DNA of 64,000 nt, taken from the NCBI GenBank assembly GCA_964583105.1, contig CAZOUV010000001.1, positions 65,617-129,616 on the forward strand, given 5' to 3'. Under the pieces are notes generated by a model that worked only from the letters and a program-made list of their open reading frames with translations, made no database searches and had not been told where the DNA came from. The DNA comes from an uncultured Gammaproteobacteria bacterium (lineage in GTDB: Bacteria; Patescibacteriota; Microgenomatia; UBA8517). Of the stretch, positions 8,823 through 64,000 are shown one piece after another. A program made the translations under genes and the position numbers. Each line of letters opens with the position of its first letter. Positions within the stretch are counted from its first letter, which is position 1.

Positions 8823-8823
8823 G

Positions 8824-10350
8824 ATGAATAAAATTTTACAAAATACATTTAAGAAAAAAAGAGTATTTACTTTTTTACTTGTGATTATTTTTGTTCTTGC
8901 CTTTATCTTGAGGACAATGTTTTTGTTCAAAAACTCTCTTACTTTTGGTTACGATCAGGCAAGAGATGCGATTATATCCCAATCCATTCTTAATGGAGAT
9001 TTAAAGATTCAGGGACCTTCTGCTTCCACCCCCGGTCTTTATCACGGAGTTTTTTATTATTATCTTTTGGCACCTAGTTATTTAATAGGTTCCGGCAGCC
9101 CCGTTGCGGCGGCTTATTGGATTGCTTTTTTAAATTCCCTAACCGTATTTATAGTTTTTTATCTAGGCTTTCTGTTTACTAAAAAGCCCTGGATGGGAAT
9201 TTTAGCCTCTTTCCTGTTTGCAATTTCTTTTGAGGCAACCCAATATGCAACCTGGCTTTCTAATCCGACAATTGCCGTTTGGACGGTACCTTTAATTTAT
9301 CTTGGACTATGGTTATGGATTTCCGGAAGAGGCAAAATCGGTTCGGTTGTTGCGGCTTTGGGTTTCGGGCTTTCCATTCAATCCGAAATTTTTCTTCTTT
9401 ATCACATTATCCCGATTTGCATTTGGCTTTGGATAAGCCGCAAAGACATAAAAAGAAAACAAATATTTACATTTGCTTTTTGGTTTATAGCCGCAGTCAG
9501 CACAATGATTTTGGTTGAGTTTAAATTTGGCTTCAGAAGCATTCAGGGTTTTAAAACACTTGCACTGGGTGGGGAAACCAATCTTGCATATGCAAAATCA
9601 ATCGGGGATTATTTAATTCTTTACCTTAATCAGATAGGAAGAATATTTGCATTTAATCTGTACCCGGGAAATATCGGTTGGGGAGGAGCCGTAGTAATAA
9701 TTCTTGGAATATATTCTTTGATTAAAAAAAATAAAGTGGGAGCGTTTTTGGCAACATGGCTCTTTGCACATATTTGGGTAGTTACCGTCGGAGGAACAAG
9801 TACGCCCTTTTTAATGGTTGGAATAGGTCCCGCGGTGTCACTAATTGTTGCCTACTATCTTTTGAAATTTAAGTCATGGATTCCCATGGTTTTAATAGTT
9901 CTTGTAATAGTCTTCGGAAATATATCCATGATTTTAAAAGAAAACCCTAAAGGCTCGACCTTGTTTTCGATTCAAAAAGACATGCTTTTAAGTAAACAAA
10001 TGCAGGTTATAGATTACACCTATAAAGAGGCCAATGGAGATGAATTTAGTATCAATACACTTACTTCTCCTCTTTGGATAAATATTGTCTGGAGTTACCT
10101 ATATAAATGGTATGGTTTGCCTAAATACGGATATCTACCTTCTTTCCATGGACATGATCAGGTAGGCCAGATTGATTCACTGGTTCAAGTATCTCAACCC
10201 GCCAAAACCTCGTTTTTGATTATTGAGCCGATGGCGGGAATCCCTCCCCAGTATCTTGATTTGACGGTGGGAGAAGAAGATGTGGAAAGCAAACTTATAG
10301 ATGAGACAAGTTTCGGTGAACTTCGTGTTCAGAAACGTTTCGTAAAATGA
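8824..10350 (+). CDS. GT-C-like polytopic membrane glycosyltransferase (ArnT/PMT-related, divergent)
   Basis: N-terminal TM then 'FGYDQARDAI' acidic loop motif, ~11 TM, C-terminal soluble domain. Confidence 0.45.
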   Translation: MNKILQNTFKKKRVFTFLLVIIFVLAFILRTMFLFKNSLTFGYDQARDAIISQSILNGDLKIQGPSASTPGLYHGVFYYYLLAPSYLIGSGSPVAAAYWIAFLNSLTVFIVFYLGFLFTKKPWMGILASFLFAISFEATQYATWLSNPTIAVWTVPLIYLGLWLWISGRGKIGSVVAALGFGLSIQSEIFLLYHIIPICIWLWISRKDIKRKQIFTFAFWFIAAVSTMILVEFKFGFRSIQGFKTLALGGETNLAYAKSIGDYLILYLNQIGRIFAFNLYPGNIGWGGAVVIILGIYSLIKKNKVGAFLATWLFAHIWVVTVGGTSTPFLMVGIGPAVSLIVAYYLLKFKSWIPMVLIVLVIVFGNISMILKENPKGSTLFSIQKDMLLSKQMQVIDYTYKEANGDEFSINTLTSPLWINIVWSYLYKWYGLPKYGYLPSFHGHDQVGQIDSLVQVSQPAKTSFLIIEPMAGIPPQYLDLTVGEEDVESKLIDETSFGELRVQKRFVK

Positions 10351-11006
10351 CGCCTGCGTCAGGAAGTGTTAGAATTCCTAAAATGAAAAAGAAACAGACT
10401 CCTTTTAATTGGTATGATGAATCCATAAAAGTGGATTTTTTCCAAAGATTTTGGCACAGAACAAGATTTAGTCAGGTATCCAAGGCAGTAGAACCCGTTA
10501 AAGGTATAGTTTTAGATGTAGGATGCAATGACGGGACCTTTTCCAAGGTGATTTTTGACAAAACAAAGGCAAAAAGACTAATAGGTATCGACATAGAAAA
10601 AGATCCGATTCTCTGGGCAAGCAAACATCAAAAAATAGTTGGTTTAAGTTTTCAGACAGGAGATGCCGAAAACTTGAAATTTAAATCCAATTACTTTGAT
10701 GCGGTTTTTTGTCTGGAGGTATTGGAGCATGTTAAAAATCCCCTAAAGACGCTTCAGGAGTTAAAAAGAGTAATGAAAAAGGGTGGTTATGGAATCTTTT
10801 TAGTTCCATCCGACAGCCTCCTTTTTAGAATAATATGGTTTATTTGGTTGAATTTTTACCCTCGAGGCTGGGTATGGAGAGAAACTCATATACAAACTTA
10901 TAGGGGCAGTTATTTGCCTAAAGTTTGCAGAAAAGCCGGTTTTAAGGTCGAGAAGGACAAAAAATTTAATCTGGGCATGCTACACTTAGTAAAAGTAAGA
11001 AAATAA
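10347..11006 (+). CDS. Class I SAM-dependent methyltransferase (Methyltransf_11-like)
   Basis: 'VLDVGCNDGTFS' SAM motif I, 'FDAVFCLEVLEHVKNP' motif; ATGA overlap with upstream. Confidence 0.7.
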   Translation: MTPASGSVRIPKMKKKQTPFNWYDESIKVDFFQRFWHRTRFSQVSKAVEPVKGIVLDVGCNDGTFSKVIFDKTKAKRLIGIDIEKDPILWASKHQKIVGLSFQTGDAENLKFKSNYFDAVFCLEVLEHVKNPLKTLQELKRVMKKGGYGIFLVPSDSLLFRIIWFIWLNFYPRGWVWRETHIQTYRGSYLPKVCRKAGFKVEKDKKFNLGMLHLVKVRK

Positions 11007-11010
11007 CAAA

Positions 11011-11898
11011 ATGAAAGCTTCAATAATTATTCCTAACTTTAATGGAGAAAAGTTGTTGGCCCAAAACTTACCATTTCTGCTTAAGGCAATGGAAAATGGG
11101 GAAAATAAAATTGCCGAGATTATTGTTGTGGATGACGGTTCTTGGGATGGAAGCGTTAAACTTATTAAAACCAAATTTCCCCAGATTAAATTGATTAAAC
11201 ATACTAAAAACAGAGGTTTTTCCGCTTCTGTAAATACCGGAGCAAGAGCCGCAAAGGAAAAGTTAATAGTTTTACTTAATAGCGATGTTGTTCCAAGTGA
11301 AGATTTTTTATCAAGGACACTAAATTTATTTGAGGACAAAAATCTTTTTGCAGTTTCTATGCATGAACAAGGCTATGGTTGGGCAAAAGGAACCTTTAGT
11401 GACGGTTTTGTGGGGCTTGCCATGGGTGAAGAAGGAAATTCTGTTTTACCCAGCTTCTATGTAAGCGGGGGAAGCGGAGTATTTAAAAGAGAGATTTGGA
11501 TGGAGCTTGGGGGAATGGACGAAAAACTTCTTTCCCCTTTCTATTGGGAAGATATCGATATTTGCTACAGAGCTTTAAAAAGGGGATACTTGGTTGTTTG
11601 GAATCCCGAAGCAAAAGCGGTCCATAATCATGAATCTACTATCGGAAAATTGCCGAAAAAATTAGTTGCAAGAATTAGGGAAAGAAACCAGCTTATATTT
11701 ATTTGGAAAAATATTACAAGCAAGAACCTTACAAGAAAGCATTTTGCGGGACTTGCAAAAAGGTTTATTAAGCATCCCGGCTATCTAAGAATTATATTTA
11801 TGGCTTTGGCTAAATTGGGACTAATTATTAAAGCCAGAAAAAAAGAAGCCAAAGAATCGAAAGTGTCCGATGAAGCGATTTTTTCGAGATTTAATTAA
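11011..11898 (+). CDS. Family 2 glycosyltransferase
   Basis: 'ASIIIPNFNGEKLL...IIVVDDGSWDGS', 'LNSDVV', 'YWEDIDICYRALKRGY'. Confidence 0.7.
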   Translation: MKASIIIPNFNGEKLLAQNLPFLLKAMENGENKIAEIIVVDDGSWDGSVKLIKTKFPQIKLIKHTKNRGFSASVNTGARAAKEKLIVLLNSDVVPSEDFLSRTLNLFEDKNLFAVSMHEQGYGWAKGTFSDGFVGLAMGEEGNSVLPSFYVSGGSGVFKREIWMELGGMDEKLLSPFYWEDIDICYRALKRGYLVVWNPEAKAVHNHESTIGKLPKKLVARIRERNQLIFIWKNITSKNLTRKHFAGLAKRFIKHPGYLRIIFMALAKLGLIIKARKKEAKESKVSDEAIFSRFN

Positions 11899-11903
11899 TA
11901 ATT

Positions 11904-12734
11904 ATGGGAAAACTTCTTTCAATTGTTATAGCAAGTTTCAATACCAAGAGCCTTACACTGGGTTCTATAAATTCGGTTATTAAATCTAACCCCAAGGTGG
12001 ATTATGAAATTGTGGTTGTTGATGATGCATCATCCGATGGAAGTGCCGAGGCTTTAAAAGAAGTTGTTGAAAAAAATAAAAACATAAAATTACTCATAAA
12101 CAAAGAGAATTTGGGTTATGTCGGAACCAACAATAAAGGAATTAAAAAATCGTCTGGAAAATACATACTTCTTTTAAATTCCGATACGGTAGTTAAAAAT
12201 TCAGCACTGGATTCCTTGGTTGATTTTGCCGAAAACCATAATGATGCAGGAGTTGTCGGAGCAAGGCTTTTAAATCCCGACGGATCGGTACAGGCTTCCT
12301 GCTACCGTCTGCCGACAATTAAAAATGCGATATTAGAATATTGGTTTGGGAAAAAAGGACTTTTCGAAAAATATATTCCTTCGGGAGAAAATTATAGGGA
12401 AGTGGAAGCCTTGGTCGGAGCAGCTTTTTTAATTACTCCCAAGGCTTTGCAAAAGGTAGGAATGTTAAATACTGCCTACAAATCTTATTTTGAGGATTTG
12501 GATTACTGCCGTGCGGTAGGAAAAGCAGGCTTAAAAGTATATTATTTACCCAAGGCGGAAATTTTTCATTATCACGGAGCCTCGTTTAGCAAGCTTGGGA
12601 ATGAAAAAAACCGTTGGAAAAAACTTATTCCCTCAAGCAAAATTTATCACGGTTTGTTTGGACATTACTTAATTAATGCTATCATTTGGATAGGTCAAAA
12701 ATGGGCATTAACAAAAAAAACATTGTTTGGATAA
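11904..12734 (+). CDS. Family 2 glycosyltransferase
   Basis: 'LSIVIASFNTKSLT...IVVVDDASSDGS', 'LLLNSDTVV', 'YFEDLDYCRAV'. Confidence 0.7.
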   Translation: MGKLLSIVIASFNTKSLTLGSINSVIKSNPKVDYEIVVVDDASSDGSAEALKEVVEKNKNIKLLINKENLGYVGTNNKGIKKSSGKYILLLNSDTVVKNSALDSLVDFAENHNDAGVVGARLLNPDGSVQASCYRLPTIKNAILEYWFGKKGLFEKYIPSGENYREVEALVGAAFLITPKALQKVGMLNTAYKSYFEDLDYCRAVGKAGLKVYYLPKAEIFHYHGASFSKLGNEKNRWKKLIPSSKIYHGLFGHYLINAIIWIGQKWALTKKTLFG

Positions 12735-14377
12735 TTCTTCTTCTTTTATTAATTATTCCTACTTTCTGGAAGCTTTTAAGGCCCGGCTTTTTTTCCATGC
12801 AGGATGATTTGCAGGCATTCCGCATTTATGAAATGGATAAATGCTTTGATGACGGACAGATTCCCTGCCGCTGGGTTCCCGATGCGGGTTACAGGTACGG
12901 CTATCCTCAATTCAATTTTTATCCGCCCTCCGTTTACTACATTGGGGCAGTAATGCACAGGTTTGGAATTCAGTATATCGATGCCGTAAAAATTCTTTTT
13001 GTGGCGGGATATATTGTTTCTGCTTTAACAATGTTTTTACTTGTTAGCTCCTTATTGGGTCCATGGCCGGCTTTCGTTTCATCCGTTCTTTATTCATATG
13101 TTCCCTATAAGGCGGTTGAAGTCTTTGTAAGGGGGGCAATGAGTGAATTTTGGGCTCTTTCGATCTTTCCTTTGATTTTCCGGGCGGTTTATAAACTTAT
13201 AAAGACCGAAAAGAAAAAATATTTTATCTGGTTTTCCATATCCATTGCCCTTCTTGTTACCACACACAGTCTGATGACTTTAATATTTGCACCCTTTGCA
13301 GTTATCTGGGCGGCTTATTGGCTTTATGCCGAAAAGAAGTGGAAACATGTTTCAAAAGTTATATTATCAGGTCTTTTGGGAATTGGACTTTCGGCCCTTT
13401 TCCTATTACCTGTAATTTTTGAAAAGAAATTTGTTCATGTTGAATCTATGCTTTCCGGATATTTCGATTACAGGGCCCATTTTGTGAGTTTGTATAAAAT
13501 TTTTATTTCCCGAGAGTGGGGATACGGATCATCCGGATTTCCCAAAGAACTTCTTAACCTCTCGACGGGAATGGTTCAGTGGATTATAGGAATTGTTGCT
13601 GTAGTTTTGGGGATATTTAGCCGTAAAAAAGAAAAGAAACTTTCTTTACTACTGTTTATTCTGGCAGGATGTGAATTGATAGCTCTTTTTATGATGCATA
13701 TGAAATCAAGTTTTATCTGGGCGAAGCTTCCGTTTCTTTGGTGGCTTCAATTTCCATGGAGATATCTTTCCGTTAGTATTTTCCTTCTTTCCATCCTTGC
13801 CGGACTTGCGGTCTATTTATCATCCAAAGCAAAGTATGTTTTGGGAAGTTTGGCAATTATTGCGGCAATTGCATTAAATATCGGTTTTTTTACTCCGAAG
13901 GATTGGTTGAATATTTCCGACTCGGACAAATTTTCAGGAATTTCCTGGGAAAAGCAAATGACAATCAGCATTTTCGATTATCTGCCTATTTATGCAAAAT
14001 TGCCGCCCATAACGGAAGCTCCGAAACTACCTGAGGTATTGGAGGGCTCGGCGGATATTACCGATTATCAAAAAGGAAGCGATTTTCAAACCGGTAAATT
14101 TGAAGTTAGCCAAGAAGCTGTAATCCGGTTACCCCTTTTTGATTTTCCGGGAATGAAGGTTAGGGCAAACGGGGAAGTAATTAAACACAGTAATGACGAT
14201 TGCCGCGGCCAGGAATTTTGTCTTGGTCTTATAACTTTCAATCTTCCTAAAGGAAGCTATTTTATTGATGCAAGACTTACAGATACTCCCGTAAGGAAAA
14301 TTGGCAATTATTTGACAATAGCTAGCATGGTTACGCTTATTTGGTTCATAATTAGAAAGAAGAAGAATTCGAAATAA
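12701..14377 (+). CDS. Polytopic membrane protein, 'QDD' family copy 1 (putative GT-C-like glycosyltransferase); tandem paralog
   Basis: TTG at 12686, first ATG at 12701; 'FFSMQDDLQAFRIYEMDKCFDDGQIPCRWVPDAGYRYGYPQFNFY', 'YAPYKAVEVFVRGA', 'LQFPWRY'; C-terminal beta-rich domain plus C-terminal TM anchor. Confidence 0.5.
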   Translation: MGINKKNIVWIILLLLLIIPTFWKLLRPGFFSMQDDLQAFRIYEMDKCFDDGQIPCRWVPDAGYRYGYPQFNFYPPSVYYIGAVMHRFGIQYIDAVKILFVAGYIVSALTMFLLVSSLLGPWPAFVSSVLYSYVPYKAVEVFVRGAMSEFWALSIFPLIFRAVYKLIKTEKKKYFIWFSISIALLVTTHSLMTLIFAPFAVIWAAYWLYAEKKWKHVSKVILSGLLGIGLSALFLLPVIFEKKFVHVESMLSGYFDYRAHFVSLYKIFISREWGYGSSGFPKELLNLSTGMVQWIIGIVAVVLGIFSRKKEKKLSLLLFILAGCELIALFMMHMKSSFIWAKLPFLWWLQFPWRYLSVSIFLLSILAGLAVYLSSKAKYVLGSLAIIAAIALNIGFFTPKDWLNISDSDKFSGISWEKQMTISIFDYLPIYAKLPPITEAPKLPEVLEGSADITDYQKGSDFQTGKFEVSQEAVIRLPLFDFPGMKVRANGEVIKHSNDDCRGQEFCLGLITFNLPKGSYFIDARLTDTPVRKIGNYLTIASMVTLIWFIIRKKKNSK

Positions 14378-14380
14378 ATT

Positions 14381-16060
14381 ATGAAAAGGTTATTTAGTAA
14401 ATACTGGCCGATTCTTCTCATTTTCGGCTTAAGCTTTTTGGTTACCTGGCCGCTTTTTAAATATGGATATTTTTCCCACCAGGATGATTTGCAGGTAATC
14501 CGAATTTTTGAAATGAGGAAGTGTTTTGTAGACATGCAAATCCCCTGTAGATGGGTACCCGATATGGGCTGGGGTAATGGTTTTCCTCTGTTTAATTTTT
14601 ACGGGGTTTTTCCATACTATTTTGGAGCAATACTGAGTTATTTGGTAGGTTTTATAGGAGCTTCAAAGGTCCTATTTTATATTTCTTTAACCTTGGGAAG
14701 TTTTGGAATGTATTTTCTTGTAAAAAGCCTTTGGGGAAAACTTGCGGGGGTAACTTCCGCCGTTCTTTATCTTTTCGCCCCGTATAAGGCCCTTGATGTT
14801 TATGTTAGAGGTGCACTTGCAGAAAGCTTGGCACTTGCGATAATTCCTTTTGTTTTCTACTTTGGCTATAAGTTAGTTGTTTCAGAAAATATTAAAAAGT
14901 ACTGTTTTTTATTTACACTTTCATTATTTATATTCCTGACAACCCACAACATTATGGTTATATTATTTGCACCGTTTCTTTTTGTATGGTTAACTTATTG
15001 GCTATTAAAAAATAAATGGAAAAATTTTAAACCGGTATTAATTTCCGGTTTATTGGGATTTGGAATGGCTTCCTTTTTTCTTCTTCCTGCGTTTTTTGAA
15101 AAGAATTTAGTTCAGACAGAATCACTTCTTCGTTTTGAATTGGATTTTAGAGCCAATTATCTGAAATTAAGTCAATTGTTTTTTGACAGAATCTGGGGCT
15201 ACGGGACTTCAATTCCGGGTCCCGAAGGAGGAATGAATTTCCAGGTCGGCTGGCCGTACTGGTGGTTGGTGGCAGTTTCAGCAATTATTTTGTTTTTCCT
15301 AAAAACCAAAAGAAGCGTCAAGGTTCTTGTTGTTGGAATTATTGCTGTTTTTATTTTTTCCGTATTTATGACACACAATAAGTCGACTTTTATCTGGATT
15401 AACATTCCTCTTCTTAAATATTTTCAATTTCCTTGGCGCTTTTTATCCTTGTCAATTTTTACCGCCTCTTTATTGGGGGGATTTGTGGTTACTTTCTTCA
15501 AGGAAAAGCTGGGAATATATATCGCCGCAATAATTATCGTTTCGACGGTTGTTTTAAACTGGAATTATTTTAAGCCTAAAACTTTTTACTCAATTTCGGA
15601 TTCCGAAAAACTATCGGGAGAACCTTGGCAGGAACAGAGAAAGGGGGCAGTGTTGGATTATCTTCCAAAAACCGCACTGGAGCCTATGGAAGCTGCACAG
15701 GAAAGTCCCATTGTAAGATCCGGCATATCTGAGATATCCAATTTTATTAATCGTTCAAACCGTTGGGAATTTGATGTTGACGTTACAGACAAATCTGAAA
15801 TAGAAATCCCCGTATACTATTTTCCTAATTGGGAAGTAAAGGTGGATGGAAAAACATATCCTTTTTCCTACAGTAATTTATTGGGAAGAATTACTGTAGA
15901 ACTTGATATGGGTAATTATAAAATTGAAGGACATTTTAAAGATACTCCAATAAGAAAGGTGGCCAATATAATTACGATTTTAAGCGCAGTAGGATTTATT
16001 TATTATGTAAATAGAAAGAACTTAGGTAATAATTACATAAATGATATTCACAAAAAATGA
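14381..16060 (+). CDS. Polytopic membrane protein, 'QDD' family copy 2 (putative GT-C-like)
   Basis: 'YFSHQDDLQVIRIFEMRKCFVDMQIPCRWVPDMGWGNGFPLFNFY', 'FAPYKALDVYVRGA', 'FQFPWRF'. Confidence 0.5.
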   Translation: MKRLFSKYWPILLIFGLSFLVTWPLFKYGYFSHQDDLQVIRIFEMRKCFVDMQIPCRWVPDMGWGNGFPLFNFYGVFPYYFGAILSYLVGFIGASKVLFYISLTLGSFGMYFLVKSLWGKLAGVTSAVLYLFAPYKALDVYVRGALAESLALAIIPFVFYFGYKLVVSENIKKYCFLFTLSLFIFLTTHNIMVILFAPFLFVWLTYWLLKNKWKNFKPVLISGLLGFGMASFFLLPAFFEKNLVQTESLLRFELDFRANYLKLSQLFFDRIWGYGTSIPGPEGGMNFQVGWPYWWLVAVSAIILFFLKTKRSVKVLVVGIIAVFIFSVFMTHNKSTFIWINIPLLKYFQFPWRFLSLSIFTASLLGGFVVTFFKEKLGIYIAAIIIVSTVVLNWNYFKPKTFYSISDSEKLSGEPWQEQRKGAVLDYLPKTALEPMEAAQESPIVRSGISEISNFINRSNRWEFDVDVTDKSEIEIPVYYFPNWEVKVDGKTYPFSYSNLLGRITVELDMGNYKIEGHFKDTPIRKVANIITILSAVGFIYYVNRKNLGNNYINDIHKK

Positions 16061-16071
16061 TGTCTACATAA

Positions 16072-17727
16072 ATGATTAAAAAAATACTAAATAAGTATTT
16101 ATTTGTTCTCATTATTCTACTTTCTATTCCTGCCGTAAGGTATTTGTTTGTTCACGGCTTTTTTGGGGTTTCCGATGATCTTCATATAGGCTGGCTTTAC
16201 GAAATGGACAGGGTAATAAAGATGTTTCAGTTTCCTCCCAGGTTTGTTCCGGATTTAAGTTTCGGTTTTGGCTATCCGCTTTTTACTTTTGTTTATCCGC
16301 TTCCCTTTTATATTGGAGAAATTTTTTATCTTATCGGATTTTCCCTGGTTAACAGTGTCAAAATTGTTTTCGGTCTTTCAATACCTTTTTCGATGTATTT
16401 TATGTACAAATTCCTCAGAGAATTTTTACCCAAAGAACTTTCTTTTGCAGGATCGGTTCTTTATGTATATGCGCCATATAGAGCAGTGGAAATATTTGTA
16501 AGGGGAGGAATTGGAGAAATTGTGGCTTTTGTTTTTCTACCTCTTATTGCCTTGGCTTTTGTACGTTTAACTAGCGAAAAATTGTCCCTTAAATGGATCG
16601 GAATCTGCGCTTTTTCAATTGCCGCGTTGGTATTATCACACAATATCATGGCTTATATGTTTATGCCTTTTGCGATTGTTTTATTAATTGCCAGATTAAT
16701 CTTTTTGACCAAGAATAAAAAGAAAGCGGTTTCATTCAGTTTGGCGGGGATAACTTTGGGACTTTTAATCTCCAGTTATTTTTGGTTTCCTGCGATTTCA
16801 GAAAGTTATCTTATGCGCTACGATACCGTTTTTAATTTCTACGATCACTTTCCTACTCTCAGGCAATTTATTACTCCCTATTTCGGATATGGAGCATCTG
16901 TTCCGGGACCATATGACACAATGTCTTTCTATTTTGGAATAGTCGGAATTCTGGTTATCTTATTCGGTTTAATATTATTCGTTTTTAAATTTAAAAAGTT
17001 TTCAAAAGAAGAAAAAATATATTTTGTCTGGGGAACATTTGTCTTTTTTGTAAGTGTATTTATGATGAATTATCGTTCAGCCTTTTTGTGGAGAAACCTT
17101 CCACTTTTACCATATTTTCAATTTCCCTGGCGTTTTATTTCAATGATTACTTTCTGTACTCCCGTTTTTCTTTTGGCTTTCTCAAAACACAGATTTATGA
17201 AAATTATTTCTTTAATAGTAGCCGTTGGGGCAATTATTCTTAATTTTAATTATTTTAAAACAAGCGAATATTTAGGTAGGGAAGACGGGTACTATCTTAA
17301 TAGGTATATTCCGGTGCCTTCCGCCTCCGATGAATACAAAAAAACATCCGAGGAGTATTTAAGACTACCTAAGGAAACCCTTGAAAGACCATCGGAAAAT
17401 TTACCAAGGGCATATGCCGAAGTACCCGGCATTAAGCAAATTAACGAAGAAAATGCTCTTGATGCGGTAGTTTTAACGGATTACAAAGAAGAATTTATTC
17501 TTAATTACAATAAGTACTATTATCCCGGTTGGTTTGCTAGAATAGATGGAAAGAGGGTAGGGATTTTGCCCGGAAAGCCATACGGACAGATAACAATAGC
17601 AGTTCCGAAAGGAGAGCATAGGATAGAAGTAGGTTATAGAGAATCTCCTAAAAGACTGATGTTTGATTTAATGTCGCTGGTAGGTTGCGGGATTGGGCTA
17701 TTCTTGATTTTAAAAAAGTCTAAATGA
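16072..17727 (+). CDS. Polytopic membrane protein, 'QDD' family copy 3 (putative GT-C-like)
   Basis: 'GVSDDLHIGWLYEMDRVIKMFQFPPRFVPDLSFGFGYPLFTFVY', 'YAPYRAVEIFVRGG', 'FQFPWRF'. Confidence 0.5.
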   Translation: MIKKILNKYLFVLIILLSIPAVRYLFVHGFFGVSDDLHIGWLYEMDRVIKMFQFPPRFVPDLSFGFGYPLFTFVYPLPFYIGEIFYLIGFSLVNSVKIVFGLSIPFSMYFMYKFLREFLPKELSFAGSVLYVYAPYRAVEIFVRGGIGEIVAFVFLPLIALAFVRLTSEKLSLKWIGICAFSIAALVLSHNIMAYMFMPFAIVLLIARLIFLTKNKKKAVSFSLAGITLGLLISSYFWFPAISESYLMRYDTVFNFYDHFPTLRQFITPYFGYGASVPGPYDTMSFYFGIVGILVILFGLILFVFKFKKFSKEEKIYFVWGTFVFFVSVFMMNYRSAFLWRNLPLLPYFQFPWRFISMITFCTPVFLLAFSKHRFMKIISLIVAVGAIILNFNYFKTSEYLGREDGYYLNRYIPVPSASDEYKKTSEEYLRLPKETLERPSENLPRAYAEVPGIKQINEENALDAVVLTDYKEEFILNYNKYYYPGWFARIDGKRVGILPGKPYGQITIAVPKGEHRIEVGYRESPKRLMFDLMSLVGCGIGLFLILKKSK

Positions 17728-18989
17728 AAAAAATAATTTCAATAATTCTTGCGGTAGGGATAGTTTTAAGGATTTTTCTATCTTTTTCCACATACCATTC
17801 CGATGTTGCTCCGTTTGATTTTGCGGGAAAGGTAATTTCTCAAGGAAATATCACCAATTTCTATGACTATTTATGGAATCTTCCGGAAGACCATCCTTAT
17901 TTGAAAGTTTATCCGAGAAATCTTTTTAACTATCCTCCGCCAGTTTATTTTTTCTTAGGAGGAGTTTCTTTACTAACCACATGGATGGTTAATCCCGAGG
18001 TGTATGCCAATTTTATTCTTGATTTTCCTTCAACACTGGGCAATATTCAGCTTAATCTGCTGCTTTTTCTTTTGAAACTGCCTTACTTTTTCTTCGATAT
18101 AGCAATCGCCTATATGCTTATGGCATTCTTCAAAGAAGAAAAGAAGAAGTTGTGGATTTTTGGTTTATGGATATTTAATCCTATCAACCTTTACGCAACA
18201 TACATGGTAGGACAGTTTGATATTATTCCCACATTTTTATCAGTTTGGGTACTTTATTTGGTCTTAAAAAATAAGGAAAAGATTGATTCCATTAGTTTAA
18301 TACCAAGCGGTATTCTTTTGGGAGTTGGGGCAGCTTTTAAAATATTTCCACTTCTTTTTATTCTGCCTTTGGCGCTTTTGAAGAAAGACTGGTGGGGAAG
18401 AATTAAGGTTTTATGTTCAGGATTTCTGACCTATCTTGTTTTGGCTTTTCCGTTTATATTTTCAAAAGGCTTTAGGGCAACAGCTGCCCTTGCCGGTCAA
18501 ACCACCAAAAGCCTGTATGCCCAAATTCCTATTTCGGGAGGGGAATCGATAATTTTATTTTTAGCGGTTGTTGTATTTTTGTATTTGGTATTTATTTATA
18601 AAAAGACTGCAGCCGAAGATTTGTGGAAAAGATTTTTCCTAATGATGCTTACTTTTTTTGTTTTTACCCATTATCACCTTCAATGGTTTGTTTGGATTAC
18701 CCCGTTTTTGCTGATTGATTTAGTGAAATCAAATTTTAAAAATTGGGTGGCTATAGTATTAACACTTTTAAGCTATATTGGTTTGATGACATTTTTTGAT
18801 CCGGGTTTGACTGTTTGGTTATTTGCCCCCATCAATCCTTTGCTTTGGGGAGCCCCCGGGGTTTGGCAGCTTATTGGGTTAAATCCCGACATTAATATCT
18901 TTAGGAGCATTTTCCATACTTTATTTGTGGGTGCGGCTATCTATTATTTTTATATTCATTTTCCAAAAAATACGGAGAATAAACTATGA
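17724..18989 (+). CDS. Polytopic membrane protein, probable GT-C mannosyltransferase-like (GT87/DUF2029-like), tandem copy 1
   Basis: 'YHSDVAPFDF...NYPPPVYFFLG', 'LKLPYFFFDIAIAYMLMAFF...IFNPINLY'; paralogous to 18986-20188. Confidence 0.4.
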   Translation: MKKIISIILAVGIVLRIFLSFSTYHSDVAPFDFAGKVISQGNITNFYDYLWNLPEDHPYLKVYPRNLFNYPPPVYFFLGGVSLLTTWMVNPEVYANFILDFPSTLGNIQLNLLLFLLKLPYFFFDIAIAYMLMAFFKEEKKKLWIFGLWIFNPINLYATYMVGQFDIIPTFLSVWVLYLVLKNKEKIDSISLIPSGILLGVGAAFKIFPLLFILPLALLKKDWWGRIKVLCSGFLTYLVLAFPFIFSKGFRATAALAGQTTKSLYAQIPISGGESIILFLAVVVFLYLVFIYKKTAAEDLWKRFFLMMLTFFVFTHYHLQWFVWITPFLLIDLVKSNFKNWVAIVLTLLSYIGLMTFFDPGLTVWLFAPINPLLWGAPGVWQLIGLNPDINIFRSIFHTLFVGAAIYYFYIHFPKNTENKL

Positions 18990-20188
18990 AAAAACTATTA
19001 ATGTTGGCAATAGTATTAAGACTTCTTGTTTCCGCATTTTTATTTCACCCCGATATTAAAACTTACAATTTTCAAGCTTCCTTTTTGAGAAAGGGAGTTG
19101 TCAATATTTATTCCTATCTTATAGAAAATAAGAAAACATTACCCCTTAAGGATGAGTTTGTTTACTTTCCTCTTACCTATTTTATTCTTGGAGGCTATCA
19201 GGCAGTTACCTCCGGAATTTTGGGAAGCGGGTTTGATTCATGGCTTGCGGATGCAGGAGCCAATTCGGTAGTTGCCAACCCCAGTGTCTTTAAATATTTG
19301 GTAGTACTTAAATTTCCCTATTTGATACTGGATATTGGCATAGCCTTTCTTCTTTTAAACTATTTTAAGGACAAGAAAAAAGGGGAAAAAGCTTTCTATC
19401 TTTGGCTTTTTAATCCTTTTACAATTTTAATTATTTATGCCTTTTCCAATATAGATATATTTTCCGTTCTTTTAACTTTGGTTGCTTTTTTGTTTATTAA
19501 AAAAGAAAAACTTATTAAGGCGTCGGTCTTTTTGGGAATTGCATCATGTTTTAAACTTTATCCTTTGCTTTTTATACCATTTTTGTTTTTAAAGGGGAAA
19601 GATTTGAATGAAAAAATATTAGTGAGTTTGATACCCGTTCTTATTCTTCTTGCGGTTGTTTTACCTTTTTGGTCTCCCGCATTTGTTCAATCGGCACTTA
19701 TCTCGGGGCTTACAACAAGAATATTTAATCCCGGATTTGCGATAGGTTTTAACGAATCGATAATTGTAGGCTTTTTTATTTTATCGGCTTTGTTTTTTTA
19801 CGGCTGGCTGTCGGATAAAAAAATTAACCTGTTTAACTACTGGGTAGTTTTTTTGATTCTTATTTTTTCTTTCTCTCACTTTCATATAGCATGGCTTCTT
19901 TGGATAGCTCCCTTTATGGTAATTTTAGTAATTAAAAAACCATATTTATCTTTACCCATTCTTATTTTATCGGCCGTAGCAGTTGTTATTCCCATGTTTT
20001 ATCAGGACAGATCGATGACAATTTCATTGTTTAGAATTTATACAACATGGTACGATCTTCTTCCTACTCCTTTTGTTGTACTGCAAAAGATTTATGACCC
20101 CTATAATTTTATGAGTGTCCTACATTCTGCAATGGCGGGGGGACTGCTAATCATCGGATATAAGATTTTACATGAAGATAAAATATAA
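18986..20188 (+). CDS. Polytopic membrane protein, GT87/DUF2029-like, tandem copy 2
   Basis: 'FHPDIKTYNF...YFPLTYFILGG', 'LKFPYLILDIGIAFLLLNYF...LFNPFTIL'. Confidence 0.4.
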   Translation: MKKLLMLAIVLRLLVSAFLFHPDIKTYNFQASFLRKGVVNIYSYLIENKKTLPLKDEFVYFPLTYFILGGYQAVTSGILGSGFDSWLADAGANSVVANPSVFKYLVVLKFPYLILDIGIAFLLLNYFKDKKKGEKAFYLWLFNPFTILIIYAFSNIDIFSVLLTLVAFLFIKKEKLIKASVFLGIASCFKLYPLLFIPFLFLKGKDLNEKILVSLIPVLILLAVVLPFWSPAFVQSALISGLTTRIFNPGFAIGFNESIIVGFFILSALFFYGWLSDKKINLFNYWVVFLILIFSFSHFHIAWLLWIAPFMVILVIKKPYLSLPILILSAVAVVIPMFYQDRSMTISLFRIYTTWYDLLPTPFVVLQKIYDPYNFMSVLHSAMAGGLLIIGYKILHEDKI

Positions 20189-21719: not shown

Positions 21720-21769
21720 ATATTAAATGCTTTAACATGATAGACAATGAGTGTTAGAATAATTGCTAT

Positions 21770-24152: not shown

Positions 24153-24176
24153 ACTCAAAGTATATATAATAATAGT
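24153..24176. promoter_or_regulatory. Divergent promoter region (TATATAAT) between 22320(-) and 24177(+)
   Basis: 24-nt AT-only gap 'actcaaagtatatataataatagt' between divergently oriented starts. Confidence 0.25.
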
Positions 24177-37983: not shown

Positions 37984-38711
37984 AATTTCTTTCGGTTATA
38001 GTCCCTGCATACAAACAGGAAAAAACCATAAAACAGGATTTAAAAAATATTGTTTCTACCCTTGAAAATGGACTTATTGGTACAGACTTTGAAGTAATAT
38101 GCGTTGTTGATGGTTTTTTGGACAGAACTTTTGAAAATGCAAAAAGTATAAAATCCGAAAAGCTCAAGGTTTTTGGATATAAAGAAAATAAAGGCAAGGG
38201 ATTTGCGGTTAGGTATGGAATGAAGAGGGCAAAGGGTGACCTAATCTCCTTTTTGGATGCGGGAATGGAAATAAGCCCCAAAAGCGTAATGATGCTTATG
38301 GCTCATCTCGAATGGTATAACGCTGATATTATTGTTGGCTCCAAAAGACATTCTGTATCAAGAGTCAATTATTCTCTTACAAGAAAAATTATCAGTTTTT
38401 TTTATCACGTTGGGGTAAAAATACTTTTTGGACTTGACTTAAACGATACCCAGAGCGGGATAAAAATATTTAAAAGAAAGGTTGTTGAAAAGATACTCCC
38501 AAAACTTTTAGTGAAAAGATATGCCATGGATATAGAAATGCTTGCTTTAGCAAATCATATTGGTTTTGACCGTATCTTCGAGGGTCCAATCGAAGTACAT
38601 TTTGACAAAGAGACCAGTCGCGTTAACTGGAAAGATGGATTGAAAGCCATTTGGGATACTGTCGCAGTTTTTTATCGCCTCAAGATTTTAAGGTATTATG
38701 ACCGTAACTAG
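37980..38711 (+). CDS. GT2, DPM1-like polyprenol-phosphate glycosyltransferase
   Basis: 'LSVIVPAYKQEKTI...EVICVVDG', 'GYKENKGKGFAVRYGMKRAKGDLISFLDAG'; no TM. Confidence 0.6.
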   Translation: MKFLSVIVPAYKQEKTIKQDLKNIVSTLENGLIGTDFEVICVVDGFLDRTFENAKSIKSEKLKVFGYKENKGKGFAVRYGMKRAKGDLISFLDAGMEISPKSVMMLMAHLEWYNADIIVGSKRHSVSRVNYSLTRKIISFFYHVGVKILFGLDLNDTQSGIKIFKRKVVEKILPKLLVKRYAMDIEMLALANHIGFDRIFEGPIEVHFDKETSRVNWKDGLKAIWDTVAVFYRLKILRYYDRN

Positions 38712-40179
38712 TTTTGTTAAAAAACACAAACTATTACTGCCGGCAATTTTGGTTTTAATTTTGTTTTTTGGGCTTTATGGAAATACTCTTTTTATGTTTT
38801 TCTCACAGGATGATTTTTTTCACCTCAAACTTGGTCAATTATCAATAAACAATAATGTTTTAGATATTTTTTCTTTCAGATCATTTAATGACAGGGGCGG
38901 AGTATATTTTTACCGCCCGATTTTTAGAGAGTTGTTATATAAATATTTCTATCAGATATTCGGATTTAATTCTTTTCCTTTTCGTATTTTGCAGTTTTTA
39001 ATTCTGTTTCTTAATTCTTTCTTAATTTATTTTATTCAAATTAAGTTGACTAAATCCAAGTTTATTTCGATCTTCTCAAGTTTTTTTAGTTTGTTTGCGG
39101 TAGCCAATATCGGCGTGCTTTCCTATCTTGCGGGTGGAATTCAGGTTAGTGGGATGGTCTTTTTTTCTCTGTTATCCATAATTTTTTATCTTAAATATTT
39201 AGAAAAAGAATCTTTCTTAAAATTTTTTATATTCGTTATTTTTAATATTCTCGCACTATGCTCTCACGAAATATCTGTTTCATTACCGTTAATATATTTA
39301 CTTATTTATATATATGTTAGGGGTTTTACTAAAGAAAATATTATAAAAAGTTTAAAGTTGAATTTTTTTTCATTTTCATTAAGTATATCTCTTCTTGCGG
39401 CCGAGATTTTTGTGATAGGTCTTCCCTTAAATGAGGCTCAATACGGAATAAGTTTATCTTTAACAAAAATACTTAATTCATATTTTTGGTATGGACTATG
39501 GTCTTTGGGGATTCCCGAAATGCTTATTGATTTTGTAGGTCCGGGTTTTAATTTGAACCCAGATTTGATGCGCTTTTGGGGGGTATATTTTATCTTTATT
39601 TTCTCCTCGTTTGTCTGTTTATTGTTAATTTTTATTACGAATATCAAAAAAATAATAAATGACAAAAGGTTTTGGTTCTTTTCCGTATTTTTTATTTTAG
39701 GTATTTTTCCTGTAATTCTTGTTCCTTTACATAAACAATATGTCTATCTTTCTCTGGTTATTTTTGCTGTCGGAGCTATTCTGGGAATAATTGCTGAAAA
39801 AATAAAATCAAAAATATTTTTACTTGTTTTTATTTTTTCGGTTGTTGTTTTAAATATTTCCTCTATTTTTCTTGCTCAAAAAACATATTGGGCTTTAAGT
39901 AGAAATGAAATCTCTGAAGTTATTATTAATCAGATAAAAAGAGAATATCCTTCTCTTCCCAAGGGATCAAAAATATATATAATCAACGATCCAAATTACC
40001 CAAATTTGGGCAAAGATTGGGGAGGATCATCCACACAGGCTTCGGTTATTTTATCGGGCAGTGACGGTTTGCAAATGCTATATAATGATTTAATCCTGAA
40101 AGTTTATTATGAGGATATCAAAAAACCTGAAGCATACGATGAATTTATAGTTATTAGTCCAAGGGTAGAAAGAAAATAG
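38698..40179 (+). CDS. Polytopic membrane protein, 'QDD'-family-related (putative GT-C-like)
   Basis: 'MFFSQDDFFHLKLGQ' after TM1, the same F-x-QDD placement as 12701/14381/16072; ~11 TM, C-terminal soluble domain. Confidence 0.4.
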   Translation: MTVTSFVKKHKLLLPAILVLILFFGLYGNTLFMFFSQDDFFHLKLGQLSINNNVLDIFSFRSFNDRGGVYFYRPIFRELLYKYFYQIFGFNSFPFRILQFLILFLNSFLIYFIQIKLTKSKFISIFSSFFSLFAVANIGVLSYLAGGIQVSGMVFFSLLSIIFYLKYLEKESFLKFFIFVIFNILALCSHEISVSLPLIYLLIYIYVRGFTKENIIKSLKLNFFSFSLSISLLAAEIFVIGLPLNEAQYGISLSLTKILNSYFWYGLWSLGIPEMLIDFVGPGFNLNPDLMRFWGVYFIFIFSSFVCLLLIFITNIKKIINDKRFWFFSVFFILGIFPVILVPLHKQYVYLSLVIFAVGAILGIIAEKIKSKIFLLVFIFSVVVLNISSIFLAQKTYWALSRNEISEVIINQIKREYPSLPKGSKIYIINDPNYPNLGKDWGGSSTQASVILSGSDGLQMLYNDLILKVYYEDIKKPEAYDEFIVISPRVERK

Positions 40180-53453: not shown

Positions 53454-53459
53454 AGAATA

Positions 53460-57738: not shown

Positions 57739-57796
57739 TGTCATTTATCCGAATTTATTGGACAAAACAGATTGTTTTAAATATACTTCTTCTCAT

Positions 57797-62452: not shown

Positions 62453-63607
62453 ATGAGAAAAGAAAAAAAAGAAGTTAAAAATTTTTTATTGAAGTTTCTG
62501 GTTTTTTCCTTTCCTATTCTTTTGGTTGTGGGATACATAGTTTATACAGGACTTGTTCTTCCTGTTGATTATTTTACTTTTAGGGCTTGGGAGGCATTAA
62601 GTGTTTACAAAAAGAACGATATTTTATCTGGTCCATTTTACCCCAACATGCATTTGACTAAAACGGAATTGGGGGATTTGTCAGGGCTTTCAAAATATCC
62701 TGTCGCAAAAGAAGTTGAGTGGTATACGGATAAATATGGATATAGAATAAAAAATTATAAAGATAGAAATTACCAAATAGTCATTATTGGAGACTCAAGT
62801 ATTGCTGGATCAGCATTAACTCAAGACAAAACAATTTCCGAAATAATATATCAAAAAACAGGTTTGGGAGTTTATCCTTATGCCCCCTCCAACTTTAATA
62901 ATTATTTAAAAGAAAAACGTTTCAAAGATAATCCTCCTAAAATAGTGGTTATTGGATCTGTGGAGAAGCTGGTTTTGGGTATGTCTGAAGTTTTACCAAA
63001 AGAGGAGCTCGTTTCTAAAAATATTCCATGGTCTTCTTGGGGGATTGTCTCCTATTTTGCTATTATGGAAGACAGGCTTAAAAAAGATACTTTTGTAAAT
63101 TACATTCGAGCAAGATTTAAAGAAATACCGAGATACTTAAAAGAACCCGGTTTTAAACCCAGGAAACCAGGCGTTCTTACTATCGAAAATCCAGGTTTTG
63201 GATTAAGAAGTGAGATGGTTTTTTATTCGGAACCCGAGGCTTACTTTAAATTATGGAAGGAAAGTGAAATTAATAGGGTTGTTTTTGCACTTAATCAGTA
63301 TATAGAAGAATTGGCTAAAACAAGTACAAAACTTATTTTTATGCCTATTCCCAACAAGGAAAATATTTATTGGAGACAGGTTAAGGGTGGAATTTGGACA
63401 AACAATCTTAAAAGGTTGGTTGATAAAGCTAATGAATCGGGAATTGCAACTGTTGATTTATGGTCGGTATATAATAGCTTGTACAATAAAAATCCAGACA
63501 GGCTTTTATACCATACGGACGATACGCATTGGAATGAGTATGGGGTAGATGTTGCCAGCGATAAATTAATTGAGAAGATAAATGAAATTAGTAAAGAAAA
63601 TAATTGA
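62453..63607 (+). CDS. AlgX/AlgJ/DltD-like SGNH-type acyltransferase partner of the MBOAT
   Basis: N-terminal TM anchor, 'VIIGDSSIAGS' GDS block, 'HTDDTHWNEYG' DxxH block; directly follows the MBOAT gene. Confidence 0.6.
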   Translation: MRKEKKEVKNFLLKFLVFSFPILLVVGYIVYTGLVLPVDYFTFRAWEALSVYKKNDILSGPFYPNMHLTKTELGDLSGLSKYPVAKEVEWYTDKYGYRIKNYKDRNYQIVIIGDSSIAGSALTQDKTISEIIYQKTGLGVYPYAPSNFNNYLKEKRFKDNPPKIVVIGSVEKLVLGMSEVLPKEELVSKNIPWSSWGIVSYFAIMEDRLKKDTFVNYIRARFKEIPRYLKEPGFKPRKPGVLTIENPGFGLRSEMVFYSEPEAYFKLWKESEINRVVFALNQYIEELAKTSTKLIFMPIPNKENIYWRQVKGGIWTNNLKRLVDKANESGIATVDLWSVYNSLYNKNPDRLLYHTDDTHWNEYGVDVASDKLIEKINEISKENN

Positions 63608-64000
63608 TTTTTTAAGTAAGCATTATTGGGTTTTTATTCTTGTTGTTGTTTTAATTTCCTACGGACAGCTTATATTTATGTTTCCCTGGCAGGATGATCA
63701 CGCCCTAATGTTTAAGCTGGCAAACATCGAGGGAAGAGCTGGGTATTTAGGAACCGGTCTTTTCGGAGAAGGGCCATATAAATATACGGCATTTTATCTT
63801 TACTCTATTTATCGTCTTTTTGGGTTTAGCACAGTATTGTTTTTCCTCGAATCTTTGATTTTTTATTTTATTGCCGCATTTTTTGTTTACAAAGTTTTTT
63901 CAAAAATACTTGATGAAAAGACTGGTAAAATTGCGGGATTTATTTTTGCCTGTGGGTATATTGCAAATGACGGATTTGTAAGACTTTATAATTCGGTAGG
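63582..64000 (+). CDS. 5' part of a polytopic membrane protein, 'QDD'-family-related (runs off the window)
   Basis: 'MKLVKKIIDF...LVVVLISYGQLIFMFPWQDDHALMFKLAN' with the same F-x-QDD motif after TM1; no stop before the window end. Confidence 0.45.
   Translation, partial: MKLVKKIIDFLSKHYWVFILVVVLISYGQLIFMFPWQDDHALMFKLANIEGRAGYLGTGLFGEGPYKYTAFYLYSIYRLFGFSTVLFFLESLIFYFIAAFFVYKVFSKILDEKTGKIAGFIFACGYIANDGFVRLYNSV

What the first reader, a model, noticed from the sequence alone, without database searches (positions are those of the whole stretch)
12686..17727. Triple tandem array of a 'F-x-QDD[LF]' membrane protein family with uncharacterised motifs (further copies at 38698 and 63582)
12701, 14381 and 16072 encode ~550-560 aa proteins sharing 'QDDLQ..RI.EM.KCF.D.QIPCRWVPD.G.G.G.P.FNFY', 'YAPYKA.(E/D)V(F/Y)VRGA', 'THN(I/L)M.(I/L)(I/L)FAPF' and 'FQFPWR(F/Y)LS.SIF'. 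Each has a C-terminal beta-rich domain ending in a single TM anchor. The same F-x-QDD placement just after TM1 recurs in 38698-40179 and in the truncated gene at 63582. An acidic DD loop motif right after the first helix is the GT-C hallmark, but I cannot assign the family with confidence. YfhO-like, PTPS-related-membrane-protein and DUF2079-type families are candidates. It may be a poorly described glycosyltransferase or polymerase family.
Basis: partly seen in the sequence, partly recalled or inferred. Interest (0 to 1): 0.7.

Follow-up and report, generated by a model that had tools for sequence, protein, structure and literature searches.

The report
Three tandem GT-C membrane glycosyltransferase paralogs
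Three neighbouring genes encode related membrane enzymes of a known but never-tested family (Pfam PF10131) that most likely attach lipid-carried sugars to a cell-surface glycan of a tiny Patescibacteria bacterium; this is a real but fairly ordinary feature.

Summary

The "further copies" at 38698 and 63582 are not copies. They belong to a different GT-C family that shares only the superfamily's acidic loop-1 motif.

Three things are new here:
- The A-B-C order is ancient and conserved in 47 of 83 related loci.
- The upstream GT2 is fused to A in several genomes.
- A GtrB/ArnC-like GT2 is fused to this GT-C family in at least 37 protein clusters.

These fusions point to polyprenyl-phosphate-sugar-dependent glycosylation outside the membrane. 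Donor, acceptor and product remain unknown. The genes are new members of a known, uncharacterised family, of modest interest.

The parts
12701..14377 (+). Paralog A, 558 aa from ATG 12701 (the same ORF opens at TTG 12686, 563 aa). PF10131-like GT-C membrane protein.
   Evidence: ORF. BLASTP to B gives 39% identity, E 5e-133. PF10131 scores 16.7 bits and YfhO 16.8 bits, both below cut-off. hhalign to the family profile gives 100%. NCBI's gene call is 558 aa.
14381..16060 (+). Paralog B, 559 aa. Bona fide PF10131 (PTPS_related) member, with 11 TM helices, an outward beta-sandwich and a 12th TM helix.
16072..17727 (+). Paralog C, 551 aa. The most divergent copy, with S-D-D in place of Q-D-D.
   Evidence: BLASTP to B gives 31% identity, E 5e-69. 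Its only Pfam hit is PMT_2 at 21.7 bits, below cut-off. hhalign to the family profile gives 100% over 534 columns.
12803..12808 (+). Codons of the loop-1 Asp-Asp of A (gat gat, preceded by cag for Q).
   Evidence: Sequence. The first Asp is kept in 98% of A orthologs; the rest are gaps.
14483..14488 (+). Codons of D35-D36 of B, the candidate catalytic acidic pair in the first outward loop.
   Evidence: D35 is invariant in alignment A1. It is D in 89% of 163 distant representatives, with nearly all the rest gaps. D36 is D in only 57-66% of distant members.
16174..16179 (+). Codons of D35-D36 of C (motif VSDDLH).
   Evidence: D35 is 100% conserved in 40 C orthologs.
15710..15937 (+). Beta-sandwich domain of B (residues 444-519), on the outer side of the membrane. 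Possibly an acceptor- or carbohydrate-binding module.
15947..16012 (+). Terminal TM helix of B (residues 523-544), which returns the C-terminus to the cytoplasm.
   Evidence: Helix in the model, followed by a basic tail.
11904..12734 (+). GT2 (GT-A fold) glycosyltransferase that overlaps the start of A. Its orthologs are fused to the N-terminus of A in other genomes.
   Evidence: Pfam Glycos_transf_2 at 96.6 bits. Fusions of 790-832 aa occur in P0127, P0141, P0148, P0234, L018, L037, L045 and L078. NCBIfam similarity is to the rhamnosyltransferase/EpsD/MftF class, all below cut-off.
12713..12720 (+). A8 run inside the GT2/A overlap. It reads A_AAA_AAA in the GT2 frame, so a -1 slip or one extra A would produce a GT2::A fusion.
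   Evidence: Sequence. Similar -1 overlaps with A6-A7 runs occur in L017, L024 and L072. Not tested further.
38698..40179 (+). Not part of the array. A separate GT-C family with the same Q-D-D placement after TM1.
63582..64000 (+). Not part of the array. A truncated GT-C-like ORF (139 aa in the window), probably related to the 38698 family.
   Evidence: BLASTP to the 38698 protein gives 27% identity, E 4e-4. hhalign to A2 gives 51-67% and to A1 gives 0.3%.

Best explanation
A, B and C are three specialised isoenzymes of one GT-C-fold glycosyltransferase family (Pfam PF10131, the misleadingly named PTPS_related).

Proposed mechanism:
- Each enzyme sits in the cytoplasmic membrane with its N- and C-termini inside.
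- Each presents a conserved acidic and basic pocket on the outer face. The pocket residues are D35/D36, R57, R143, E148, H189, E240 and the QFPWR motif at 349-353.
- The enzyme takes a sugar from a polyprenyl-phosphate-linked donor that was made in the cytoplasm and flipped outward.
- It transfers that sugar to a growing cell-surface glycan or glycoconjugate. The C-terminal beta-sandwich probably helps hold the acceptor.
- The three copies are co-transcribed and non-redundant. They most likely add different residues or linkages in succession, possibly as a complex.
- A works together with the cytoplasmic GT2 encoded just upstream.

Shown here: the paralogy, family membership of B, the GT-C fold, the outward position of the conserved residues, conservation of the first Asp, the conserved A-B-C order, and the GT2 fusions.

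Inferred: the donor class, catalysis by D35, the acceptor, the division of labour among the copies, and any complex formation.
For: Family and fold:
- PF10131 hit for B above threshold. PF10131 is a GT-C clan member (PMC7801869).

Active site:
- D35, R57, R143, E148, H189, E240 and QFPWR are nearly invariant in each of the A, B and C ortholog groups and in 163 distant representatives. None of the three looks like a dead copy.
- All these residues fall in outward loops of a topology that obeys the positive-inside rule.

Non-redundancy:
- Orthologs of A, B and C are 45-80% identical across genomes, against 29-39% between paralogs.
- The order A-B-C is kept in 33 loci, plus 14 loci with a fourth copy, out of 83.
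- A neighbour-joining tree groups genes by position in the array.

Donor class and pathway:
- At least 37 protein clusters carry a GT2 domain fused in front of this GT-C. The domain is closest to GtrB (5eke, E 4e-20), ArnC and dolichol-phosphate-mannose synthase.
- The upstream GT2 of this window is fused to A in at least 8 other sequences.
- Across 80 loci the family sits between an ArnC/DPM1-like GT2 with a PMT_2-type GT-C on one side and a Wzx-type flippase on the other.
- By definition, GT-C enzymes use polyisoprenol-linked donors (PMC6801728). Multi-component systems of GT-A, flippase and GT-C are described in PMC8035078.
Against: - No member of PF10131 has been characterised in the searchable literature, so donor and acceptor rest on analogy.
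- The GT2 fused to A is of the rhamnosyltransferase/EpsD-like type, not the GtrB/ArnC type. In this window it is not evidence for donor synthesis.
- No GtrA-type flippase was recognised in the window.
- A and C do not reach the Pfam threshold on their own.
- Complex formation rests only on gene order and on rare B::C fusions (P0121/L050).
Confidence: 0.7

Rival explanations
1. The three proteins are en-bloc transferases, ligases or polymerases. They would take a Wzx-flipped undecaprenyl-diphosphate-linked oligosaccharide and either polymerise it or attach it to protein or cell wall, like an oligosaccharyltransferase or an O-antigen ligase/polymerase, rather than adding single sugars from polyprenyl-monophosphate donors.
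For: - Across loci the family lies directly next to a Wzx-type flippase.
- No Wzy or O-antigen-ligase family hit was found anywhere in the window, so that role is unassigned.
- A rhamnosyltransferase-like GT2, which would build a lipid-linked glycan, is fused to A.
Against: - At least 37 clusters fuse a GtrB/ArnC/DPMS-like polyprenyl-monophosphate-sugar synthase domain to this family.
- The 3263-4978 family, which also follows Wzx in most loci, is an equally good candidate for a polymerase.
- Three conserved non-redundant copies fit stepwise additions better than one ligation step. This last point is inference.
Confidence: 0.2
2. The array is a recent, largely redundant duplication, for example for dosage or antigenic variation, and the copies do not have distinct roles.
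For: Tandem same-strand paralogs with similar length and architecture. Some genomes carry one, two or four copies.
Against: - Paralogs are only 29-39% identical, while each has 45-80% identical orthologs in the same position in dozens of species-level genomes.
- All three keep the conserved polar residues.
Confidence: 0.03
3. The proteins are not enzymes. They would be transporters or flippases, scaffolds, or pterin-related proteins as the Pfam name suggests.
For: The Pfam name mentions 6-pyruvoyl-tetrahydropterin synthase. The proteins are polytopic membrane proteins.
Against: - No hit to a PTPS catalytic domain.
- Transporters appear in Foldseek only at probability 0.25 or less.
- The family keeps GT-C-type outward acidic and basic residues.
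Confidence: 0.03

Closest known systems
Pfam PF10131, PTPS_related membrane proteins (GT-C clan CL0111)
   Same: B scores 53 bits against the 26.4-bit threshold. [quoted passage not shown] A and C are full-length paralogs of B.
   Different: Only profile positions 1-337 of 621 are matched. The C-terminal beta-sandwich and terminal TM are not covered. A and C fall below the threshold on their own. The family has no tested function.
YfhO / CsbB / GtcA-type multi-component transmembrane glycosylation systems of Gram-positive bacteria (PMC8035078, PMC5836110)
   Same: A GT-C enzyme with an outward acidic motif, an extracellular accessory domain and genes for GT-A partners next to it. There are weak YfhO matches, including one between the C-terminal region of B and YfhO positions 762-820.
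   Different: YfhO scores 11.9-16.8 bits against a 28.5-bit threshold, so these are not members. The proteins are about 300 aa shorter. No GtrA-type flippase was found. Here there are three conserved paralogs, and the acceptor is unknown.
GT136 (ORF12 of Citrobacter youngae O1), a GT-C that adds ribofuranose from undecaprenyl-phosphate-ribose (PMC11127046)
   Same: The same overall plan as described in the paper: 11 TM helices, a small helical domain after TM1 and a beta-rich domain after TM11 (one search compared).
   Different: This family has an extra terminal TM helix. GT136 works as a single enzyme with a MATE flippase.
Mycobacterial embC-embA-embB arabinosyltransferases and yeast Pmt1-Pmt2
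   Same: Paralogous GT-C enzymes that use polyprenyl-phosphate sugars. The three emb genes are tandem and are known to act as homo- and heterodimers (from my own knowledge of the EmbA-EmbB and Pmt1-Pmt2 structures 7bvf and 6p2r, both of which appear).
The 38698-40179 family and the PMT_2-type GT-C genes of the same window
   Same: GT-C fold with an acidic pair at the same place after TM1. They are remote profile-level homologs.
   Different: About 20% identity, a different C-terminal domain and no terminal TM. An HMM of the trio's family does not find them.

Membership tests
Pfam PF10131 (PTPS_related) | Score at or above the curated gathering threshold (26.4 bits) | tested here: met
   B scores 53.0 bits, E 2.7e-14. 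A scores 16.7 bits and C has no hit, so the test is met only for B. A and C are tied to B by full-length BLASTP (E 5e-133 and 5e-69) and by PF10131 hits recorded for their orthologs in L001.
GT-C glycosyltransferase superfamily | Polytopic membrane fold of the GT-C type | tested here: met
GT-C glycosyltransferase superfamily | Conserved acidic residue(s) in the first extracytoplasmic loop | tested here: met
   D35 is invariant in A1, 98-100% in the A, B and C groups, and 89% (the rest mostly gaps) in 163 distant representatives. D36 is 57-96%. The loop lies outside by the positive-inside rule.
GT-C glycosyltransferase superfamily | Use of a polyisoprenyl-phosphate-linked sugar donor | not testable with these tools
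   Support is indirect only: GtrB/ArnC-like GT2 fusions in at least 37 clusters and neighbouring polyprenyl-phosphate GT2 genes.
Pfam PF09586 (YfhO) | Score at or above the gathering threshold (28.5 bits) | tested here: not met
   A scores 16.8 bits, B 11.9 bits and C has no hit.
Pfam PF13231 / PF02366 (PMT_2 / PMT, GT39-like) | Score at or above the gathering threshold (26.1 / 22.7 bits) | tested here: not met
   C scores 21.7 bits for PMT_2. A and B have no hit.
DUF2079 | Any Pfam match | tested here: not met
   The family is not among the hits listed up to E=1 for A, B or C.
Three-component (GT-A / flippase / GT-C) extracytoplasmic glycosylation system | A polyprenyl-phosphate sugar synthase GT-A and a flippase encoded with the GT-C | tested here: inconclusive
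   ArnC/PgfS-, AglJ- and PpgS-like GT2 genes are in the window (48112-49020, 25780-26517, 37980-38711, 55209-55916), as are two Wzx-type flippases. None is adjacent to the trio in this genome, the adjacent GT2 is of another type, and no GtrA family hit was found.
6-pyruvoyl-tetrahydropterin synthase (the enzyme in the Pfam name) | Presence of a PTPS catalytic domain | tested here: not met
   No PTPS domain hit in A, B or C. The name is historical.

The most novel reading that the evidence does not exclude
A, B and C form an obligate hetero-oligomeric GT-C assembly line that builds a cell-envelope glycan specific to Microgenomates. Paralog A would be physically coupled to a cytoplasmic GT2, either by natural fusion or, in this genome, by a -1 frameshift at the A8 run. 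One polypeptide would then act on the same lipid-linked intermediate on both faces of the membrane. That two-sided glycosyltransferase architecture has not been described for characterised GT-C enzymes.
Probability: 0.12. Interest if true: 0.6.

Novelty: new member of a known kind. Interest (0 to 1): 0.33.

Why it matters
Patescibacteria (CPR) have genomes of roughly 1 Mb, yet this 64-kb window is almost entirely glycan-biosynthesis genes, including about 18 GT-C-like membrane enzymes. Their envelope chemistry is essentially unknown.

The trio belongs to a very large family that nobody has characterised: 17,545 representative clusters at E<=1e-3. The conserved A-B-C order and the two kinds of GT2 fusion give concrete, testable hypotheses about donor class and pathway partners for PF10131. 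The Pfam name has also misled annotation towards pterin metabolism. For a specialist this is a useful annotation and a target list, not a surprise.

Tried and rejected
- NCBIfam gave no hit for A, B, C or the neighbouring GT-C genes.
- A sequence search of PDB with the family profile found nothing meaningful (E>0.5).
- The afdb50 fold library was not available.
- The look-up of encoding contigs could not locate the window's own protein P0001, and the cluster look-up gave no names or accessions. The source organism is therefore inferred only from relatives (Woesebacteria, Daviesbacteria, Microgenomates).
- A single-sequence hhalign of the 38698 protein against the family profile gave 0.7%. This understated the remote relationship that the profile-profile comparison later showed.
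- The promoter and terminator scan of 7000-24500 gave no more sites than shuffled sequence.
- The small ORF 26514-26822 was considered as a GtrA-type flippase and rejected. It has two TM helices around a soluble segment and no GtrA hit.
- The idea that the upstream GT2 11904-12734 makes the polyprenyl-phosphate donor was not supported. Only its N-terminal half resembles ArnC/PgfS, while its full length resembles rhamnosyltransferase/EpsD-type enzymes.
- Model coordinates are not exposed to the sandbox, so distances between conserved residues could not be measured.
Full report
**Observation**

The window holds three head-to-tail ORFs on the + strand: 12686/12701-14377 (A, 563/558 aa), 14381-16060 (B, 559 aa) and 16072-17727 (C, 551 aa). 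They are separated by 3 and 11 nt, and C overlaps the next gene by 4 nt. All-against-all BLASTP of the window's ORFs shows they are full-length paralogs: A-B 39% identity (E 5e-133), A-C 29% (2e-58), B-C 31% (5e-69).

C reads VSDDLH, FQFPPRFVPD and SHNIMAYMFMPF. NCBI's own gene calls for these sequences are 558, 559 and 551 aa.

**Family and fold**

- hmmscan places B in Pfam PF10131 (PTPS_related) at 53 bits against a threshold of 26.4.
- A reaches only 16.7 bits for PF10131 and 16.8 for YfhO. C reaches only 21.7 bits for PMT_2. All are below threshold, and DUF2079 is not matched. NCBIfam has nothing.
- PF10131 is one of the families of the Pfam GT-C clan and is listed as function unknown (PMC7801869).
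- I found no functional study of it. It appears only as a gene name in two Clostridium acetobutylicum expression tables.
- The family is large. More than 2,500 close relatives were found, mostly from Patescibacteria, Microgenomates and Woesebacteria. A profile search gave 17,545 representative clusters at E<=1e-3.

An AlphaFold model of B, built on a 42-sequence alignment, has pLDDT 86.9 and pTM 0.89.

- Foldseek gives the same list. Transporters appear only at noise level.
- A sequence-only search of PDB finds nothing.

**Anatomy**

The model and hydrophobicity give 11 TM helices. They also give a helical segment in the first outward loop, a long low-confidence outward loop (residues 240-290), a beta-sandwich (444-519) and a twelfth TM helix (523-544). 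This topology puts 10 Lys/Arg in the short inward loops and 4 in the short outward loops.

**Conservation**

I aligned 51 A-type, 51 B-type and 40 C-type orthologs, 77 other locus copies and 163 distant representatives.

- The first Asp (D35 in B) is essentially invariant.
- The second Asp is 86-96% conserved within the trio's ortholog groups but only 57-66% in distant members.
- The residue before it is usually His. The family motif is therefore H/Q/S-D-D rather than Q-D-D.
- R57, R143, G144, E148, H189, E240 and QFPWR (349-353) are nearly invariant in all three ortholog groups, so none of the three looks like an inactive copy.
- All of these residues lie in predicted outward loops.

**The claimed extra copies**

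The ORFs at 38698-40179 and 63582-end do carry F-x-QDD after TM1. But neither BLASTP nor an HMM of the family connects them to the trio.

- With a 29-sequence alignment of the 38698 family, profile-profile comparison gives 95% probability, E 2.4e-8 and 20% identity, with the DD motifs aligned.
- The trio's profile relates at a similar remote level to the PMT_2-type gene 30047-31435, compared as a single sequence (80%). The 38698 profile relates to PMT_2-type genes at 81-91%.
- Eight other membrane proteins in the window have D-E at the equivalent position.

These ORFs are therefore different GT-C families, not further copies.

**Comparative genomics**

A scan of species-representative genomes returned more than 550 related loci, of which 80 were kept. 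They come from Woesebacteria, Daviesbacteria, Blackburnbacteria and other Microgenomates/Patescibacteria.

- With three further loci fetched by exact protein look-up, that makes 83 related loci. After classifying every family ORF against the window's three proteins, the order A-B-C is found in 33 of them, and A-B-C plus a fourth copy in 14.
- Orthologs are 45-80% identical, while paralogs are 29-39% identical.
- A neighbour-joining tree groups genes by their position in the array. Single-copy genes fall on the A side.
- The triplication is therefore old and the copies are not redundant.
- Start and stop codons typically overlap, and no terminator signal above chance lies between the genes. This fits co-transcription.

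**Fusions**

- The GT2 gene just upstream (11904-12734) is fused to the N-terminus of A orthologs in P0127, P0141, P0148, P0234, L018, L037, L045 and L078.
- That GT2 resembles rhamnosyltransferase/EpsD/MftF-type enzymes over its full length. It resembles ArnC/PgfS only over its N-terminal half.
- A different fusion is more informative. P0151 and at least 36 further clusters (757-842 aa, 47-85% identical, PF00535 plus PF10131, including one from Candidatus Blackburnbacteria) place a GT2 domain in front of this GT-C.
- In P0151, that domain is closest to GtrB (5eke, E 4e-20), ArnC (2e-15), dolichol-phosphate-mannose synthase (3e-12), PgfS and AglJ.
- These are the enzymes that load sugars onto polyprenyl phosphate.
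- B::C and other tandem fusions also occur (P0121/L050, P0123), as do fusions of B to PMT_2-type or 38698-type GT-C proteins (P0167, P0170, P0256).

**Neighbourhood**

In most loci the family lies between two groups of genes. On one side are an ArnC/DPM1-like GT2 and a PMT_2-type GT-C. On the other are a Wzx-type flippase, a conserved unknown membrane protein (the 3263-4978 family), and further GT2 and GT4 genes.

In the window's own clade the order is GT4, unknown 508-aa membrane protein, methyltransferase, GT2, GT2, A, B, C, two GT87-like genes, a 199-aa protein and a reverse-strand 612-aa membrane protein.

The whole window is a glycan-biosynthesis island. It holds about 18 GT-C-like genes, about 14 GT2, 4 GT4, two Wzx-type flippases, methyltransferases, sugar-nucleotide enzymes, and an MBOAT with an AlgX-like pair.

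**Interpretation**

The best-supported reading is that A, B and C are GT-C glycosyltransferases. They would act on the outer face of the membrane with polyprenyl-phosphate-linked donors, each adding a distinct residue or linkage to a surface glycan, with A functionally tied to the upstream GT2. I put this at about 0.7.

- The fold, the outward conserved residues, the orthology pattern and the fusions are shown.
- Donor, acceptor, catalysis and any complex are inferred.
- The main rival, at about 0.2, is en-bloc transfer or polymerisation from undecaprenyl-diphosphate-linked glycan. It is kept alive by the equally high matches to oligosaccharyltransferases, by the adjacency to Wzx, and by the absence of any recognised Wzy or ligase in the window.
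- Recent redundant duplication and non-enzymatic roles are contradicted.

**Novelty**

These are new members of a known but uncharacterised family. [quoted passage not shown] That name is misleading, because no PTPS domain is present.

The conserved A-B-C array and the two GT2 fusion types are useful new observations that make the family's function testable. A specialist in bacterial glycobiology would not be surprised by them.

Noticed in passing
window 12686-12734 (A8 run at 12713-12720): The GT2 gene and paralog A overlap by 34-49 nt, with A in the -1 frame. The overlap holds an A8 run that reads A_AAA_AAA in the GT2 frame, a classic slippery heptamer. A -1 slip, one extra A from transcriptional slippage, or a homopolymer assembly error would give a GT2::A fusion (...WALTKK-NIVWIILL...) like the natural fusions in other genomes. 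L017, L024 and L072 have the same -1 overlap with A6-A7 runs.
   Followed up: partly
window 1-64000: Nearly the whole 64-kb window is glycan-biosynthesis genes: about 18 GT-C-like membrane proteins from several families, about 14 GT2, 4 GT4, two Wzx-type flippases and five SAM methyltransferases. That is a very large share of a genome likely to be about 1 Mb.
   Followed up: partly
window 25780-28404; L001 19603-21644: A compact, overlapping set of three genes: an AglJ/PpgS-like GT2 (245 aa), a 102-aa protein with two TM helices and no family hit, and a PMT/PMT_2-type GT-C. The same set is conserved in L001. It looks like a minimal donor-synthase plus GT-C unit with an unknown small partner that is not GtrA-like.
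   Followed up: partly
window 3263-4978 (+) and 22320-24158 (-): Two paralogous polytopic membrane proteins (32% identity, E 2.5e-76) with no Pfam hit and only a weak chlor_Arch_YYY match. The 3263-4978 type follows the Wzx flippase in most related loci, so it is a candidate for the missing polymerase or ligase.
   Followed up: no
window 8824-10350: A 508-aa protein with about 10 TM helices and no Pfam or NCBIfam hit. It has GYDQARD just after TM1 and is conserved next to ArnC-like GT2 genes in many related loci. It may be another unrecognised GT-C-like family.
   Followed up: no
window 38698-38793: The public gene call for this protein is 461 aa, starting at Met33 (MFFSQDD...). That start would delete TM1. 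The 493-aa ORF overlaps the upstream GT2 by 14 nt, homologs are 470-506 aa, and the model shows a helix at 13-32. The longer start is more likely correct.
   Followed up: partly
window 51829-54488 (-) and 57683-58894 (+): A sugar C-methyltransferase (Methyltransf_14/13), a small cupin, an NDP-sugar 4,6-dehydratase and a DegT-type aminotransferase lie close together. This suggests synthesis of an unusual methylated amino-deoxy sugar for the glycan.
   Followed up: no
window 61070-63607: An MBOAT membrane acyltransferase is followed by a protein with an AlgX-like SGNH domain. This pairing is typical of extracytoplasmic O-acetylation of a polysaccharide.
   Followed up: no
L004-L083 record titles: Many MAGs that carry this Microgenomates-type locus are titled 'uncultured Gammaproteobacteria' or 'Pseudomonadales'. 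One 5-kb contig with 78% identity to B is in a 'Bdellovibrionales' bin. These are probably placeholder labels or mis-binning.
   Followed up: no
P0147 (1670 aa), P0154 (3329 aa), P0123 (1116 aa): Very long predicted proteins contain two to five stretches matching this family. They are either real multi-module fusions or gene-calling and assembly artefacts.
   Followed up: no
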